The notes under the pieces: model-generated
Database searches by the model: none
What the model saw: only the letters and a program-made list of their open reading frames with translations
Told to the model about the DNA's origin: nothing
In this document: piece by piece, positions 391 through 59,371 of the stretch
Layout of the letters: each line of letters opens with the position of its first letter
Numbering within the stretch: position 1 is the stretch's first letter
Translations under genes and position numbers: made by a program
From: Candidatus Yanofskybacteria bacterium
GTDB lineage: Bacteria; Patescibacteriota; Minisyncoccia; 2-02-FULL-40-12; IGHO2-01-FULL-4-A
Length of the DNA stretch: 64,000 nucleotides
NCBI GenBank assembly: GCA_016181175.1
Contig: JACOZV010000004.1
Span: 7,718-71,717 of the forward strand
Reading direction: 5' to 3'

Positions 391-465
391 TGGAGCCAGC
401 GGTCGGAATCGGACCGACGCTCTTTCCCTTACCATGGGAGTGCTTTACCACTAAGCTACGCTGGC
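391..465 (-). tRNA. tRNA-Thr (anticodon GGT), CCA encoded
   Basis: Reverse complement GCCAGCGTAGCTTAGTGGTAAAGCACTCCCATGGTAAGGGAAAGAGCGTCGGTCCGATTCCGACCGCTGGCTCCA. Acceptor, D, anticodon and T stems all pair. Confidence 0.85.
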
Positions 466-469
466 ATAA

Positions 470-506
470 TACCATGGAGTTGCTCTTCCACTGAGCTACA
501 ACGGCC
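470..506 (-). pseudogene. Orphan tRNA-Thr(GGT)-like 5' half (acceptor strand through anticodon loop), no 3' half
   Basis: GGCCGTTGTAGCTCAGTGGAAGAGCAACTCCATGGTA matches 23/29 nt with the D-arm to anticodon-loop part of the adjacent tRNA-Thr. It stops at CCATGGTA, 4 nt before the intact gene. No complementary AACGGCC-bearing T arm or 3' strand follows. Confidence 0.5.
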
Positions 507-798
507 TCACACCTACTTAGCTTCAACAACACAATTCTTAATTCGCCTTTTAAGTTGCAGGTATGCGTTTCCTCTCAATTTTATACTATATTCTCTATGC
601 TTGGCATCTCCTTGCGAATAATAACTTTCATAGTATATCAGCCACCAAGGAATATTCAACTTTGTGGCTTTAACCAAACCAAAATTGTGTTGTTGGAATC
701 TTAACGTAAGATCGTGGGTATAGCCAAAGTATAATTGGCCATCTTTTTTACTTTTCAAAACATAAAAATAATACATAAAGCTAAGTAGGTGTGAGGCC
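503..798. repeat. Perfect 21-bp inverted repeat bracketing the GIY-YIG ORF
   Basis: ggcctcacacctacttagctt (503-523) is the exact reverse complement of aagctaagtaggtgtgaggcc (778-798). The heptamer aacggcc abuts both outer ends (500-506 and 799-805). Confidence 0.9.
513..776 (-). CDS. Small stand-alone GIY-YIG nuclease family protein (87 aa from the ATG)
   Basis: MYYFYVLKSKKDGQLYFGYTHDLTLRFQQHN... carries the GIY/YIG-type motifs and the length of the UPF0213-like family. The TTG-extended start at 800 lies inside the inverted repeat. Confidence 0.8.
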   Translation of the reverse strand: MYYFYVLKSKKDGQLYFGYTHDLTLRFQQHNFGLVKATKLNIPWWLIYYESYYSQGDAKHREYSIKLRGNAYLQLKRRIKNCVVEAK

Positions 799-839
799 AA
801 CGGCCTTTTTTATCAACATTTTTTAACTTTATTTTTATT

Positions 840-1054
840 CTGTGGGGGCGGTAGCGTTGAAAACCAACTGCTTGGTTTTCAACGGGAATTTTAGCTTTGC
901 CTTGTGCGAATAGCACGGCAAAGCGTTATAAAAATTCCCATGCACCGTATTCGCTAAAAGCGAACTTGATGCAAATCTGCTGCTTCGCAGCAAGTCCAGA
1001 AACATAATCGCCGTAGGTAGTTATGTTTCTGGACTCTATCTGTGGGGGCGGTAG
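840..1054. repeat. 15-bp direct repeat of the tRNA-Tyr 3' end, exactly 200 bp apart
   Basis: ctgtgggggcggtag occurs at 840-854 and at 1040-1054. The second copy is the discriminator, 3' acceptor strand and start of the T stem of the intact tRNA-Tyr. Confidence 0.85.
855..1039 (-). ncRNA. Candidate structured RNA (five consecutive hairpins) between tRNA-Tyr and its duplicated 3' end
   Basis: Hairpins read directly: 855-884 (13 bp), 884-939 (nested 9+8+4 bp), 950-964 (5 bp), 978-992 (6 bp), 994-1034 (14 bp). No ORF is present. The strand is assumed from the flanking tRNAs. Confidence 0.3.
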
Positions 1055-59098: not shown

Positions 59099-59371
59099 AG
59101 TTTTGTGAGCGGCGAGTTTTGAAACACAAAACCCACCACTGGGAGGGCTTGCGCCCCTATGGAAGTTTCCCTCCATAACGTTAGGCACGCCCCAAATGAT
59201 GGGTTTTCTATGCCTAACGATTTGCGACCATGCCGCCAGCCGAAGCCGATGGTTTAGATCATTTGATATCCAATTGTGTTTTTAAGTATATCAGAAAAAC
59301 ATGAGATCCTGCAACGGATGAAAAATACTGCTGGTCAAATGTGGCAAGGTCTGCTAAAATGAGTTTTAAGA

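What the first reader, a model, noticed from the sequence alone, without database searches (positions are those of the whole stretch)
499..805. GIY-YIG mini-ORF framed by perfect 21-bp terminal inverted repeats and a duplicated heptamer
The 87-aa GIY-YIG gene is enclosed exactly by ggcctcacacctacttagctt and its reverse complement. These repeats contain its stop codon and abut its start codon. The heptamer aacggcc occurs directly outside both ends (500-506, 799-805), like a target-site duplication. Removing the cassette would leave GGCCGTT-GGCCGTT at the 5' end of a tRNA-like sequence. This looks like a miniature TIR-bounded mobile cassette carrying a homing-type nuclease. Alternatively the 21-bp helix circularises the mRNA ends and controls expression. 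I do not know of either arrangement being an established class for these small GIY-YIG genes.
Basis: seen in the sequence. Interest (0 to 1): 0.6.

Follow-up and report, generated by a model that had tools for sequence, protein, structure and literature searches.

The report
Palindrome-bounded mobile GIY-YIG nuclease cassette
A 296-bp unit, a tiny nuclease gene wrapped in two perfectly complementary 21-bp ends, is an inserted mobile cassette sitting on the 5' end of a threonine tRNA gene; it belongs to a large, apparently undescribed family of such cassettes that colonise tRNA, rRNA and other RNA genes of ultra-small (Patescibacteria/CPR) bacteria.

Summary
The inverted repeat is real: 503-523 pairs perfectly with 778-798 (0 expected by chance). 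It encloses an 87-aa GIY-YIG ORF, with the stop codon inside one arm and the start 1 nt from the other. The flanking repeat is also real but was mis-described. It is 9 nt (CAACGGCCT, 499-507 and 798-806) and overlaps the arms.

This is not a one-off:
- 61 of 78 homologous genes from other genomes have the same architecture, with a median unit of 298 bp.
- The termini are conserved (CCCnCAC...). The inner arms vary but stay about 97% Watson-Crick paired.
- 29 of 61 carry flush 4-5 bp target-site duplications, against 3% in controls.
- 63 of 65 metagenome contigs with the identical tRNA-Thr 5' half lack the cassette. One carries an ORF-less 71-nt hairpin with the same ends at the same site.
- Family members also sit inside 16S rRNA, 23S rRNA and RNase P RNA genes, and at tmRNA and tRNA 5' ends.

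Arm mismatches show no G-U excess (13 G·T, 12 A·C), so pairing seems maintained at the DNA level. The protein is a minimal Slx1/UPF0213-like nuclease, not an I-TevI-type homing enzyme.

Closest precedent is the Ssn nuclease with its flanking hairpin repeats (2025). Verdict: a real mobile cassette and a new variant of a known kind. The transposition chemistry is unproven.

The parts
778..798 (-). Upstream arm of the cassette (5' of the ORF on the minus strand). It reads GGCCUCACACCUACUUAGCUU on that strand and ends 1 nt before the ATG.
   Evidence: (I1). The terminus CCTCACACC matches the family-wide conserved terminus CCCnCAC(AC).
503..523 (-). Downstream arm of the cassette, a perfect complement of 778-798. 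It encodes the last three residues (E-A-K) and the TAG stop. Its outer GCC is also nt 1-3 of the tRNA-Thr 5' half.
   Evidence: The same overlap of arm end and tRNA 5' end is seen in L023, L029, L050, L063, L070 and L074.
513..776 (-). 87-aa single-domain GIY-YIG nuclease gene (stop codon included).
   Evidence: Pfam PF01541 E=2.7e-11. 107 homologues of 84-87 aa. Invariant Y16, R26, H30, E62. AlphaFold pLDDT 94. Nearest structures are UPF0213 and Slx1. dN/dS is about 0.10 against L081.
798..806 (.). Upstream copy of the 9-nt direct repeat CAACGGCCT (plus strand). On the minus strand it reads AGGCCGUUG, a copy of tRNA-Thr nt 1-7 with two leader bases.
   Evidence: It is identical in L081 and L166 although dS is 0.66-0.74 and the sequence further upstream is unrelated. 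GCCGTTG is also present in the ORF-less L137.
499..507 (.). Downstream copy of the 9-nt direct repeat. It forms the junction between the cassette and the tRNA-Thr 5' half.
470..505 (-). Leftover 5' exon (nt 1-36, up to the anticodon loop) of a tRNA-Thr(GGU). This is the original target gene of the cassette and is now a pseudogene fragment.
   Evidence: 75% identical to the 5' halves of both tRNA-Thr genes (D1). In L081 and L166 the same sequence continues through a group I intron into a matching 3' exon ending CAACGGCTCCA. An identical 35-mer occurs in 65 metagenome contigs.
391..465 (-). Intact, intron-less tRNA-Thr(GGU) with a different acceptor stem. It stands where the relatives have the intron and 3' exon.
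   Evidence: ARAGORN. Rfam tRNA 63.1 bits.
524..536 (-). 13-nt segment (codons N-C-V-V) contiguous with the downstream arm. It pairs perfectly with 683-695 and lengthens the stem in this sub-clade.
   Evidence: I6. Present in both DNA and RNA minimum-energy folds. L001 keeps a 14-nt equivalent with three compensatory changes; only 7 of 63 family members have a helix of 8 nt or more here.
683..695 (-). Partner of 524-536 (codons Q-Q-H-N, which include a catalytic-motif His).
   Evidence: (I6).

Best explanation
Window 503-798 is one copy of a family of roughly 300-bp IS-like mobile cassettes found mainly in Patescibacteria. Each cassette is a minimal GIY-YIG nuclease gene enclosed by two arms that are reverse complements of each other.

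History of this copy. It inserted into the first few nucleotides of a tRNA-Thr(GGU) gene and duplicated a short stretch of the target. The outer bases of its downstream arm (GCC) now supply the tRNA's own 5' end, so the tRNA gene survived the insertion.

Proposed working:
1. When the DNA is single-stranded, the two arms fold back on each other into a stem.
2. The encoded Slx1/UPF0213-like nuclease has no DNA-binding domain. It recognises the conserved base of that stem (CCCnCAC.../...GTGnGGG) and cuts at the stem-flank junction, much as the Ssn GIY-YIG nucleases bind hairpin repeats next to their genes and cut single-stranded DNA beside them.
3. Host repair or ligation completes excision or insertion, leaving 4-5 bp duplications.
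4. In transcripts the same stem folds the insert into a self-contained hairpin. This is why copies are tolerated inside or at the ends of tRNA, tmRNA, RNase P RNA and rRNA genes.

Shown here: the architecture, its family-wide conservation, the duplications, the empty sites, the ORF-less derivatives, purifying selection on ORF and arms, and the bias towards structural RNA genes.

Inferred: that the encoded nuclease is the agent, that the substrate is single-stranded DNA, and the RNA-level tolerance mechanism.
For: Architecture across the family:
- 61 of 78 loci have the ORF enclosed by 12-30 bp arms. Of the arm pairs, 1143 of 1182 are Watson-Crick.
- The median unit is 298 bp.
- The termini are conserved (CCC at 85-88%, a CAC anchor present in 60 of 61 arms, AC at about 70%). 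The inner arm carries about 0-0.6 bits of information yet stays paired.

Insertion footprints:
- Flush direct repeats of 4 nt or more occur in 29 of 61 loci. Cross-locus controls give 3.7% and within-locus shifted controls 3.0% (p=2e-25 and 5e-28).
- The modal length is 4 bp, of the form TNNA.

Empty and filled states of this very site:
- 65 contigs carry the identical 35-nt tRNA-Thr 5' half. 63 have no cassette. L166 has the ORF cassette. L137 has a 71-nt ORF-less hairpin with the same outer arm and the same GCCGTTG repeat.
- L118 and L137 align as an empty/filled pair.

Other evidence of movement:
- Further ORF-less minis with the same termini and 4-bp duplications occur in L009, L034 (two), L011, L032 (two), L045 and L095.
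- The tRNA-linked subfamily sits in front of at least seven different tRNA species.
- Tandem arrays occur in L069, L084 and L032.

Selection:
- dN/dS is 0.067/0.66 between the window and L081. Both arms and the upstream repeat are identical, while sequence further upstream is unrelated.

DNA level rather than RNA level:
- Arm mismatches are 13 G·T, 12 A·C and 14 other.

Protein:
- Confident GIY-YIG fold with the catalytic Tyr, Arg, His and Glu kept.
- Nearest structures are UPF0213 and the structure-specific nuclease Slx1.

Precedent:
- SsnA is a 94-aa GIY-YIG protein that binds hairpin repeats flanking its own gene and cuts single-stranded DNA only (PMC11893778).
- A bona fide Ssn locus was checked here (L169).

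RNA-gene niche:
- Copies lie inside 23S rRNA (L028, L059), 16S rRNA (L057) and RNase P RNA (L025).
- Copies lie at the 5' ends of RNase P RNA (L044), tmRNA (L062) and about 16 tRNAs. Nearly all are co-oriented with the RNA gene.
Against: - No activity was or could be tested.
- GIY-YIG enzymes are hydrolytic nucleases and are not known to catalyse strand transfer, so insertion would need host functions.
- No near-identical copies at different sites were found. Elements are 50-80% identical in nucleotide sequence, and two copies in one MAG are 77% identical. Identical proteins always had the same neighbours. Movement is therefore rare or ancient, and purifying selection on the ORF could equally reflect a host-beneficial (domesticated) role.
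- The window holds only this one copy and no solo arms.
- Apparent repeat length varies from 3 to 13 nt and often extends into the element terminus. This fits microhomology or site-specific joining as well as a fixed staggered cut.
- The mismatch test rests on only 39 mismatches.
- The strong co-orientation with RNA genes could also point to an RNA-level constraint.
Confidence: 0.55

Rival explanations
1. The palindromic hairpin element is the primary repeat or mobile unit. It is moved or generated by some other enzyme, either a host function or an unidentified transposase. The GIY-YIG gene is cargo, a secondary invader of the hairpin loop, or a domesticated host nuclease that polices such hairpins, as proposed for REP/RAYT and for Ssn/NTS.
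For: - ORF-less hairpins with the same termini and duplications exist, including one at this very site.
- Some GIY-YIG genes lack arms of their own but lie next to or between such minis (L009, L034, L039, L047, L052, L095). This resembles the NTS-ssnA-NTS layout (PMC11893778).
- The elements are old and the ORF is under purifying selection.
- GIY-YIG chemistry alone cannot join DNA.
Against: - In 61 of 78 loci the arms overlap or abut the start and stop codons of the ORF, forming a single compact co-evolving unit.
- The L137 loop shows no ORF remnant, and no other transposase was seen in any locus.
- Minis are rare in sequence not selected for the gene. There was one in about 420 kb of tRNA-Thr contigs and none in the 64-kb window. 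There is therefore no REP-like expansion for a host to police.
Confidence: 0.22
2. The arms matter only in RNA. They pair the two ends of the transcript segment into a processing stem, cut by RNase III as in rRNA intervening sequences, or into a translational-control stem. There is no DNA-level role.
For: - About 30% of family members lie inside or at the ends of structural RNA genes, and nearly all are co-oriented.
- In L057 the insert sits at the tip of a 16S helix.
- Non-intron, GIY-YIG-encoding insertions in CPR rRNA genes are reported (PMC11270868).
- The stem sequesters the region just upstream of the ATG, and the RNA minimum-energy fold contains it.
- A sub-clade has a second coding-region helix with compensatory changes.
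Against: - An RNA stem does not explain the flush target duplications, the empty sites, or the sequence-conserved termini on a variable stem.
- There is no G-U tolerance: 13 G·T against 12 A·C, each about 1% of pairs. RNA helices normally accumulate G-U pairs.
- ORF-less copies keep the arms.
Confidence: 0.1
3. The gene is a classical free-standing GIY-YIG homing endonuclease gene (Seg or I-TevI type). It spreads by cutting cassette-less alleles, followed by recombinational repair. The inverted repeat and the flanking repeat are incidental.
For: - It lies between highly conserved genes in a tRNA cluster.
- Relatives of the adjacent tRNA carry a group I intron.
- From my own knowledge, phage T4 SegB is a GIY-YIG homing enzyme that lies in a tRNA gene cluster.
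Against: - The protein is 87 aa with no DNA-binding module. Foldseek gives I-TevI a probability of only 0.3, against 1.0 for Slx1 and UPF0213.
- The ORF is outside the intron.
- Homing needs neither terminal inverted repeats nor target duplications, and it does not produce ORF-less hairpin derivatives with the same ends.
Confidence: 0.08

Closest known systems
Ssn nucleases with their flanking Ssn-related hairpin motifs (NTS/SRM); CDD cd10448; Chenal et al. 2025, PMC11893778
   Same: Both are single-domain GIY-YIG proteins of about 90 aa with no DNA-binding domain, and in both the gene is flanked on both sides by sequences able to form a hairpin. The authors themselves noted the IS-like look of the locus. 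The protein acts on folded single-stranded DNA next to the hairpin, which is the mechanism I borrow.
   Different: - Ssn genes are flanked by several self-contained hairpins in direct orientation carrying the motif CGTCAT-stem-ATCYRG (checked in L169). These hairpins are repeated hundreds of times per genome.
- Here a single palindrome is split by the ORF, so the ORF lies in the loop. The termini are CCCnCAC, and there are only two arms in 64 kb.
- Target duplications, empty sites and insertion into RNA genes are seen here; none of these was reported for Ssn.
- Sequence similarity is modest: 33% over 64 aa, 33.5 bits. That is lower than to UPF0213/YazA (46 bits).
UPF0213 / YhbQ / YazA standalone 'prokaryotic Slx1-like' GIY-YIG proteins (PDB 1ZG2, 1YWL)
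   Same: These are the best sequence and fold matches. They share the minimal catalytic domain, described as the ancestral standalone form in PMC1564403.
   Different: As far as I know, those genes have not been described as enclosed by inverted repeats or as insertions; I did not test this here. Their function is unknown.
IS200/IS605 elements with their palindrome-associated derivatives, and REP/RAYT systems
   Same: These are small elements that depend on DNA hairpins in single-stranded DNA. They have ORF-less palindromic derivatives, and a small nuclease gene is flanked by the palindromes it recognises.
   Different: - Their enzyme is a Y1 HUH transposase that makes covalent intermediates and can rejoin DNA. 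Here it is a hydrolytic GIY-YIG nuclease.
- IS200/IS605 elements have subterminal hairpins, no terminal inverted repeats and no target duplication.
- REPs are highly abundant, whereas these minis are not.
Intervening sequences (IVS) of bacterial 23S rRNA, and the non-intron GIY-YIG-encoding insertions in CPR rRNA genes (PMC11270868)
   Same: In both, an insert bounded by a long stem sits in an rRNA helix, and some carry a small ORF. Family members L028, L057 and L059 are exactly such rRNA insertions.
   Different: - The window copy is at a tRNA 5' end, not in rRNA.
- In the text I searched, the CPR paper does not mention inverted repeats, duplications, ORF-less derivatives or tRNA, tmRNA or RNase P targets.
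- Classical IVS ORFs belong to a different family (S23p; from my own knowledge).
Free-standing and intron-encoded GIY-YIG homing endonucleases (I-TevI, T4 Seg proteins)
   Same: They share the GIY-YIG catalytic domain, are selfish genes and sit next to conserved genes. A group I intron is present in the neighbouring tRNA of relatives.
   Different: Homing enzymes have a long DNA-binding C-terminal region, recognise duplex DNA, and have no terminal repeats or duplications. The fold match to I-TevI is weak.

Membership tests
Ssn / SRM system (cd10448) | Single-domain GIY-YIG protein of about 90-100 aa | tested here: met
   87 aa. Pfam GIY-YIG covers residues 1-71. A single compact domain at pLDDT 94.
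Ssn / SRM system (cd10448) | Protein falls in the cd10448 clade | tested here: inconclusive
   No CDD tool was available. The protein is 33% identical (33.5 bits) to P0125, an SRM-flanked member verified here. It scores better against B. subtilis YazA (46 bits) and against the UPF0213 structures (E=8e-12). It probably belongs to a neighbouring family.
Ssn / SRM system (cd10448) | Gene flanked by self-folding NTS/SRM hairpins (CGTCAT-stem-ATCYRG) | tested here: not met
   The arms at 503-523 and 778-798 pair with each other, not with themselves. No NTS-like motif is present. Compare L169.
Ssn / SRM system (cd10448) | Many copies of the motif across the genome | tested here: not met
   Only the two arms are found in 64 kb, even allowing 3 mismatches or searching short core patterns. 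The whole genome was not available.
Ssn / SRM system (cd10448) | Site-specific cleavage of single-stranded DNA next to the hairpin, with no activity on duplex DNA or RNA | not testable with these tools
   This needs biochemistry.
Insertion sequence / TIR transposon (generic) | Terminal inverted repeats at both ends | tested here: met
   21 of 21 bp paired in the window. Present in 61 of 78 family loci.
Insertion sequence / TIR transposon (generic) | Target-site duplication flanking the ends | tested here: met
   Window: a 9-nt repeat overlapping the arms, with a flush 5-nt CGTTG. Family: 29 of 61 loci against 3% in controls.
Insertion sequence / TIR transposon (generic) | Empty sites in related genomes | tested here: met
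   63 of 65 contigs with the identical tRNA-Thr 5' half lack the cassette. L118 and L137 form an empty/filled pair.
Insertion sequence / TIR transposon (generic) | Encodes a transposase of a recognised class (DDE, HUH, serine or tyrosine recombinase) | tested here: not met
   The only ORF is a GIY-YIG nuclease. ISfinder has no GIY-YIG family, to my knowledge.
Insertion sequence / TIR transposon (generic) | Several near-identical copies per genome (recent transposition) | tested here: not met
   There is one copy in the window. Two copies in one MAG are only 77% identical, and no pair at different sites reaches 85%.
GIY-YIG homing endonuclease (I-TevI / Seg type) | Catalytic domain joined to a sequence-specific DNA-binding region | tested here: not met
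   The protein is 87 aa in total, all of it catalytic domain. Foldseek probability for I-TevI is 0.3.
GIY-YIG homing endonuclease (I-TevI / Seg type) | Cleaves the cassette-less duplex allele | not testable with these tools
   This needs biochemistry on the GCCGTTGTAGCTCAG target.
rRNA intervening sequence (IVS)-like insert | Stem-bounded insert within a structural RNA gene | tested here: met
   Family level: inside 23S rRNA (L028, L059), 16S rRNA (L057) and RNase P RNA (L025). The window copy abuts and overlaps a tRNA 5' end rather than lying inside an RNA.
rRNA intervening sequence (IVS)-like insert | Excised from the transcript by RNase III | not testable with these tools
   This needs transcript-end mapping.

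The most novel reading that the evidence does not exclude
These cassettes are autonomous DNA transposons whose only protein is an 84-87-aa GIY-YIG nuclease. That would make them the first prokaryotic transposon family built on this fold and, at about 300 bp, the smallest autonomous mobile elements known. On this reading they move through a folded single-stranded intermediate. They specialise in structural RNA genes because their G-rich terminus regenerates the 5' end of the tRNA, tmRNA or RNase P RNA and because their stem is harmless within RNA helices.
Probability: 0.3. Interest if true: 0.85.

Novelty: new variant of a known kind. Interest (0 to 1): 0.68.

Why it matters
If the encoded nuclease really mobilises its own palindrome, this is a new enzymatic route to transposition and a new lower size limit for a self-contained mobile element.

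It would also explain part of the unusual load of non-intron insertions in the rRNA, tRNA and RNase P RNA genes of CPR bacteria.

It extends the hairpin-plus-minimal-GIY-YIG theme, so far known only from Ssn in Proteobacteria, to a second protein family. For this family there is direct comparative evidence of insertion: duplications, empty sites and ORF-less derivatives. That turns the 'is it an IS?' question raised for Ssn into something testable.

Practically, each cassette offers a natural pairing of a tiny nuclease with its DNA stem, of the sort now being explored as single-stranded-DNA tools.

Tried and rejected
Searches that found nothing useful:
- Exact-protein look-ups for the window's GIY-YIG protein and for its L33 protein found nothing on record.
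- NCBIfam gave no family.
- Rfam gave nothing for the cassette itself.
- The promoter and terminator scan found nothing convincing for the ORF. It is probably read through from the tRNA cluster.
- The viral-contig scan found only two partial hits at contig ends, so phage carriage is not indicated.
- Plasmids gave only YazA-type hits.
- Literature searches for a GIY-YIG element with terminal inverted repeats and target duplications in bacteria found none.

Tests that came out negative:
- P0041 and P0086 were examined for the same protein in different genomic contexts, which would indicate recent transposition. Each had a single context.
- I tested whether insertion sites are generally -35 promoter boxes. 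This holds for only three ORF-less minis and is not general.
- I tested whether the second helix (524-536 with 683-695) is family-wide. It is confined to a sub-clade.

Ideas considered and dropped:
- An integron attC-like cassette. GTTGGCC does not fit the core site GTTRRRY, and no integrase is present.
- A split or permuted tRNA. No matching 3' half exists on the minus strand, and L081 shows the real 3' exon lying beyond a group I intron.
- That the L082 cassette-CGTTG-cassette junction proves a circular intermediate. A tandem duplication cannot be distinguished from it.
Full report
**1. The observation**

The window holds a perfect 21-bp inverted repeat, 503-523 with 778-798, with 254 nt between the arms. 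Allowing up to three mismatches, the 21-mer occurs nowhere else in the 64 kb, and 0 matches are expected from shuffles.

Between the arms, on the minus strand, lies an 87-aa ORF (776-513) that matches Pfam GIY-YIG at E=2.7e-11. Its TAG stop (515-513) is inside one arm. Its ATG (776-774) is one base from the other arm.

The flanking repeat is real but was described loosely.
- It is 9 nt, CAACGGCCT, at 499-507 and 798-806, and it overlaps both arms.
- Excising 503-798 would leave GGCCGTTGTTGTAGC, not GGCCGTT-GGCCGTT.

**2. Local context**

On the minus strand the order is as follows:
- tRNA-Thr(UGU), 1217-1143
- tRNA-Tyr, 1126-1042
- a 184-nt structured spacer
- the cassette
- a 36-nt tRNA 5' half, 505-470
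- four bases
- a complete tRNA-Thr(GGU), 465-391
- rpmG
- tRNA-Trp

The nearest relative of the protein is P0001 (90% identical), found on four short groundwater contigs. In L081 the cassette has the same arms and the same upstream GGCCGTTG. There the adjoining tRNA-Thr(GGU) is whole but interrupted in the anticodon loop by an intron of about 300 nt. This intron resembles a group I intron (Rfam RF00028, 22.6 bits, E=0.009, with the conserved core present). It is followed by a matching 3' exon, rpmG and tRNA-Trp.

The window's 36-nt piece is therefore a leftover 5' exon. In this lineage the intron and 3' exon have been replaced by a different, intron-less tRNA-Thr(GGU).

**3. The architecture is a family trait**

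The protein has 107 close homologues of 84-87 aa, essentially all from Patescibacteria-type MAGs. A pattern scan of species-representative genomes found at least 569 loci, of which 80 were fetched.
- 61 of the 78 usable loci have the ORF enclosed by 12-30 bp complementary arms that abut or overlap the start and stop codons.
- The median unit is 298 bp, range 275-338.
- The outer end is sequence-conserved: CCC at 85-88%, then one variable base, then CAC (the alignment anchor, present in 60 of 61 arms), then AC at about 70%.
- From the next base inward there is almost no sequence conservation, yet pairing persists.
- Overall 1143 of 1182 arm positions are Watson-Crick pairs.
- Arm classes are CCCCCACAC (33 loci), CC(C)CTCAC (13, including the window), CCCCCACCA (6) and other (9).

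**4. Evidence that the units are insertions**

(a) Flush direct repeats of 4 nt or more border the arms in 29 of 61 loci. Cross-locus controls give 3.7% (p=2e-25) and within-locus shifted controls 3.0% (p=5e-28). The mode is 4 bp of the form TNNA, such as TTTA, TCAA, TGAA, TAAA and TTGA.

(b) Empty sites. 65 metagenome contigs contain the identical 35-nt tRNA-Thr 5' half.
- 63 have unrelated sequence running straight up to the tRNA. In several, tRNA-Tyr is followed by a spacer of about 20 nt and then tRNA-Thr.
- One, L166, has the ORF cassette (87% amino-acid identity).
- One, L137, has a 71-nt ORF-less hairpin with the same outer arm (GGCCTCACACCTA) and the same GCCGTTG repeat at the same position.
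- L118 and L137 align as an empty/filled pair.

(c) ORF-less minis with the family termini and 4-bp duplications occur elsewhere:
- L009 (TAGA)
- L034, two copies (TGGA and TTGA)
- L011 (TAAA)
- L032, two copies in tandem before a tRNA
- L045
- L095

(d) The CTCAC subfamily lies directly 5' of at least seven different tRNA species: Val (three anticodons), Ala (two anticodons), Lys and Thr. In each case the flush duplication is about 5 nt (tRNA positions 5-9 or so) and the element's outer GGGC/GGCC supplies tRNA nt 1-4. This produces an apparent 9-13-nt repeat and leaves the tRNA gene intact.

(e) Tandem arrays exist in L069, L084 and L032. L082 shows a right-end-CGTTG-left-end junction that could be either a tandem copy or a circle.

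**5. DNA or RNA?**

Single transitions in a helix give either G·U or A·C on the sense strand. An RNA helix under selection tolerates the first and not the second.

Across 61 helices I counted 13 G·T, 12 A·C and 14 other mismatches. This looks like unselected noise on an otherwise almost perfect repeat. ORF-less copies also keep the arms.

Complementarity therefore seems to be maintained at the DNA level. Either the arms pair in single-stranded DNA on either strand, or one arm is copied from the other.

Conserved sequence at the stem base combined with a freely covarying stem is the pattern expected for a protein that reads a short motif in a folded substrate.

Both single-stranded DNA and RNA minimum-energy folds of the window copy contain the 21-bp stem.

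**6. Selection**

Between the window and L081, dN=0.067 and dS=0.66. Against L166, dS=0.74. Despite this near-saturated synonymous divergence, both arms and the upstream GGCCGTTG are identical, while sequence further upstream is unrelated.

The ORF, the arms and even the upstream repeat copy are thus under constraint. On the other hand, no two elements at different sites are closely similar. Identities are 50-80%, and two copies in one MAG are 77% identical. Identical proteins always had the same neighbours. Movement is therefore infrequent or old.

**7. The protein**

- AlphaFold gives a confident GIY-YIG fold (pLDDT 94).
- Invariant or nearly invariant residues include Y5, Y16, R26, H30 and E62.
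- By sequence the nearest solved structures are the UPF0213 proteins BH0048 and EF2693, followed by SLX1.
- By fold the nearest are 1ZG2 and Slx1, with TM-scores of 0.65-0.70 on the query. I-TevI reaches a probability of only 0.3.
- There is no room for a DNA-binding domain.

The protein is a standalone Slx1-like nuclease, the group regarded as the ancestral minimal form (PMC1564403). It is not a homing-type enzyme.

**8. Niche**

Rfam scans of all 80 loci, together with ARAGORN, place cassettes as follows:
- inside 23S rRNA genes (L028, L059)
- inside a 16S rRNA gene, at the tip of a helix (L057)
- inside an RNase P RNA gene (L025)
- at the 5' end of RNase P RNA (L044)
- at the 5' end of tmRNA (L062), where the element's GGGGG is the tmRNA's GGGG
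- directly 5' of about 16 tRNAs on the same strand
- abutting the 3' end of three opposite-strand tRNAs (L020, L071, L073)

That is roughly 30% of loci, against a few percent expected from genome coverage (my estimate). Nearly all are co-oriented with the RNA gene.

This matches a published remark that the GIY-YIG ORFs found in CPR rRNA insertions lie in sequences that are not introns (PMC11270868). A stem-bounded insert would fold on itself in the transcript, as rRNA intervening sequences do. That is a plausible reason why such insertions are tolerated.

**9. Mechanism, with degrees of belief**

- That 503-798 is an insertion belonging to a family of mobile or formerly mobile cassettes: about 0.9.
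- That the encoded nuclease acts on its own folded arms, by analogy with SsnA: about 0.5. SsnA binds the hairpin repeats flanking its gene and cuts single-stranded DNA only (PMC11893778).
- That it suffices, with host repair, for transposition: about 0.3.

Points against:
- GIY-YIG nucleases hydrolyse DNA and do not join it.
- Repeat lengths vary and often extend into the element end. This would also suit microhomology-guided or site-specific joining.

The main rival is that the hairpin is the primary element and the nuclease is cargo or a domesticated controller. It is not excluded.

An RNA-only role and classical homing are both unlikely, for the reasons given above.

**10. Comparison with known systems**

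The closest precedent is the Ssn/SRM system.
- I verified one genuine member. P0125 in L169 is flanked by four direct CGTCATACCTGCGCAGGCAGGTATCCAG hairpins.
- The window protein is only 33% identical to it and scores better against YazA/UPF0213.
- The repeat layout differs: here one palindrome is split by the ORF, whereas Ssn genes are flanked by several self-folding hairpins. The NTS motif is absent and there is no genomic expansion of the repeat.
- I therefore do not file the cassette as an Ssn member. It works like one at most.

It also resembles IS200/IS605 and REP/RAYT in its reliance on hairpins, and rRNA intervening sequences in its RNA-gene niche. It differs from each in its enzyme class or in its end structure.

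I found no description of inverted repeats, target duplications or ORF-less derivatives for these CPR GIY-YIG genes in the library searched. The library is incomplete, so this is absence of evidence only.

**11. Limits**

- All comparative loci are MAG or metagenome contigs.
- Mobility is inferred from footprints, not observed.
- The DNA-versus-RNA test rests on 39 mismatches.
- CDD-based family assignment was not possible.
- The whole genome of the window organism was not available for a copy census.

Noticed in passing
window 839-1054 (minus strand): A 16-nt direct repeat, TCTGTGGGGGCGGTAG (839-854 and 1039-1054), brackets a 184-nt spacer. The second copy is the last 12 nt of tRNA-Tyr plus 4 nt. 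The spacer folds into five hairpins (minimum free energy -89 kcal/mol, z=-10 against shuffles) and has no Rfam match. Relatives L131, L134 and L142 have only a spacer of about 20 nt here. L124 and L145 carry a homologous part of it running straight into tRNA-Thr. It looks like a second, different small insertion at the tRNA-Tyr 3' end.
   Followed up: partly
window 391-505; L081 744-1035; L104-L168: About 38 of the 65 contigs with this tRNA-Thr(GGU) 5' half have an insert in the anticodon loop resembling a group I intron. The tRNA-Tyr in L137 also has one. The window instead keeps only the 5' exon, followed by TTAT and a complete intron-less tRNA-Thr(GGU) with a different acceptor stem. This is a tRNA gene replacement that left a half-gene behind.
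   Followed up: partly
window 524-536 and 683-695: A perfect 13-bp helix joins the codons for N-C-V-V, which are contiguous with the downstream arm, to the codons for Q-Q-H-N (I6). It is identical in L081 and L166 despite dS of about 0.7. L001 keeps it with three compensatory, amino-acid-changing substitutions. Only 7 of 63 family members have a helix of 8 nt or more in this position.
   Followed up: partly
L028, L057, L059, L025, L044, L062, L045: Homologous cassettes lie inside 23S rRNA, 16S rRNA and RNase P RNA genes, and at the 5' ends of RNase P RNA and tmRNA. In L045 an RNase P RNA gene is bracketed by ORF-less minis.
   Followed up: partly
L082 697-766; L084 1-40: In L082 the right arm is followed by CGTTG and then the left arm of an identical cassette. 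This could be a tandem copy or the junction of an excised circle. L084 shows a diverged cassette directly upstream of the normal one, which is a true tandem array.
   Followed up: no
L009 1759-1861; L034 815-917 and 1758-1860: Three ORF-less minis sit exactly on a -35 box. Their 4-bp duplications (TAGA, TGGA, TTGA) begin the hexamers TAGACA, TGGACA and TTGACA, and each is followed at the correct spacing by a good -10 box (TATAAT, TAGAAT, TACAAT). This does not hold for the family in general.
   Followed up: partly
L081 about 870-1000; L166 663-794 (locus coordinates, opposite orientation): The group I intron of the neighbouring tRNA-Thr contains a long extra hairpin whose ends (TCCCGCACCC/GGGTGAGGGA) resemble the cassette termini. 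It may be a mini element inserted in an intron helix.
   Followed up: no
window 59144-59260 (minus strand): A LOOT RNA (Rfam RF03000) scores 71.1 bits, above the gathering threshold.
   Followed up: no
window 793-807 (plus strand): The upstream repeat copy and the arm end form a small GGCC-AAC-GGCC hairpin followed by a T-run on the plus strand. This is a terminator-like site antisense to the ORF. The equivalent small hairpin, formed by a tRNA 5' copy pairing with the arm end, recurs in the tRNA-linked subfamily (for example GGGGC-GGTTA-GCCCC in L023 and L029).
   Followed up: no
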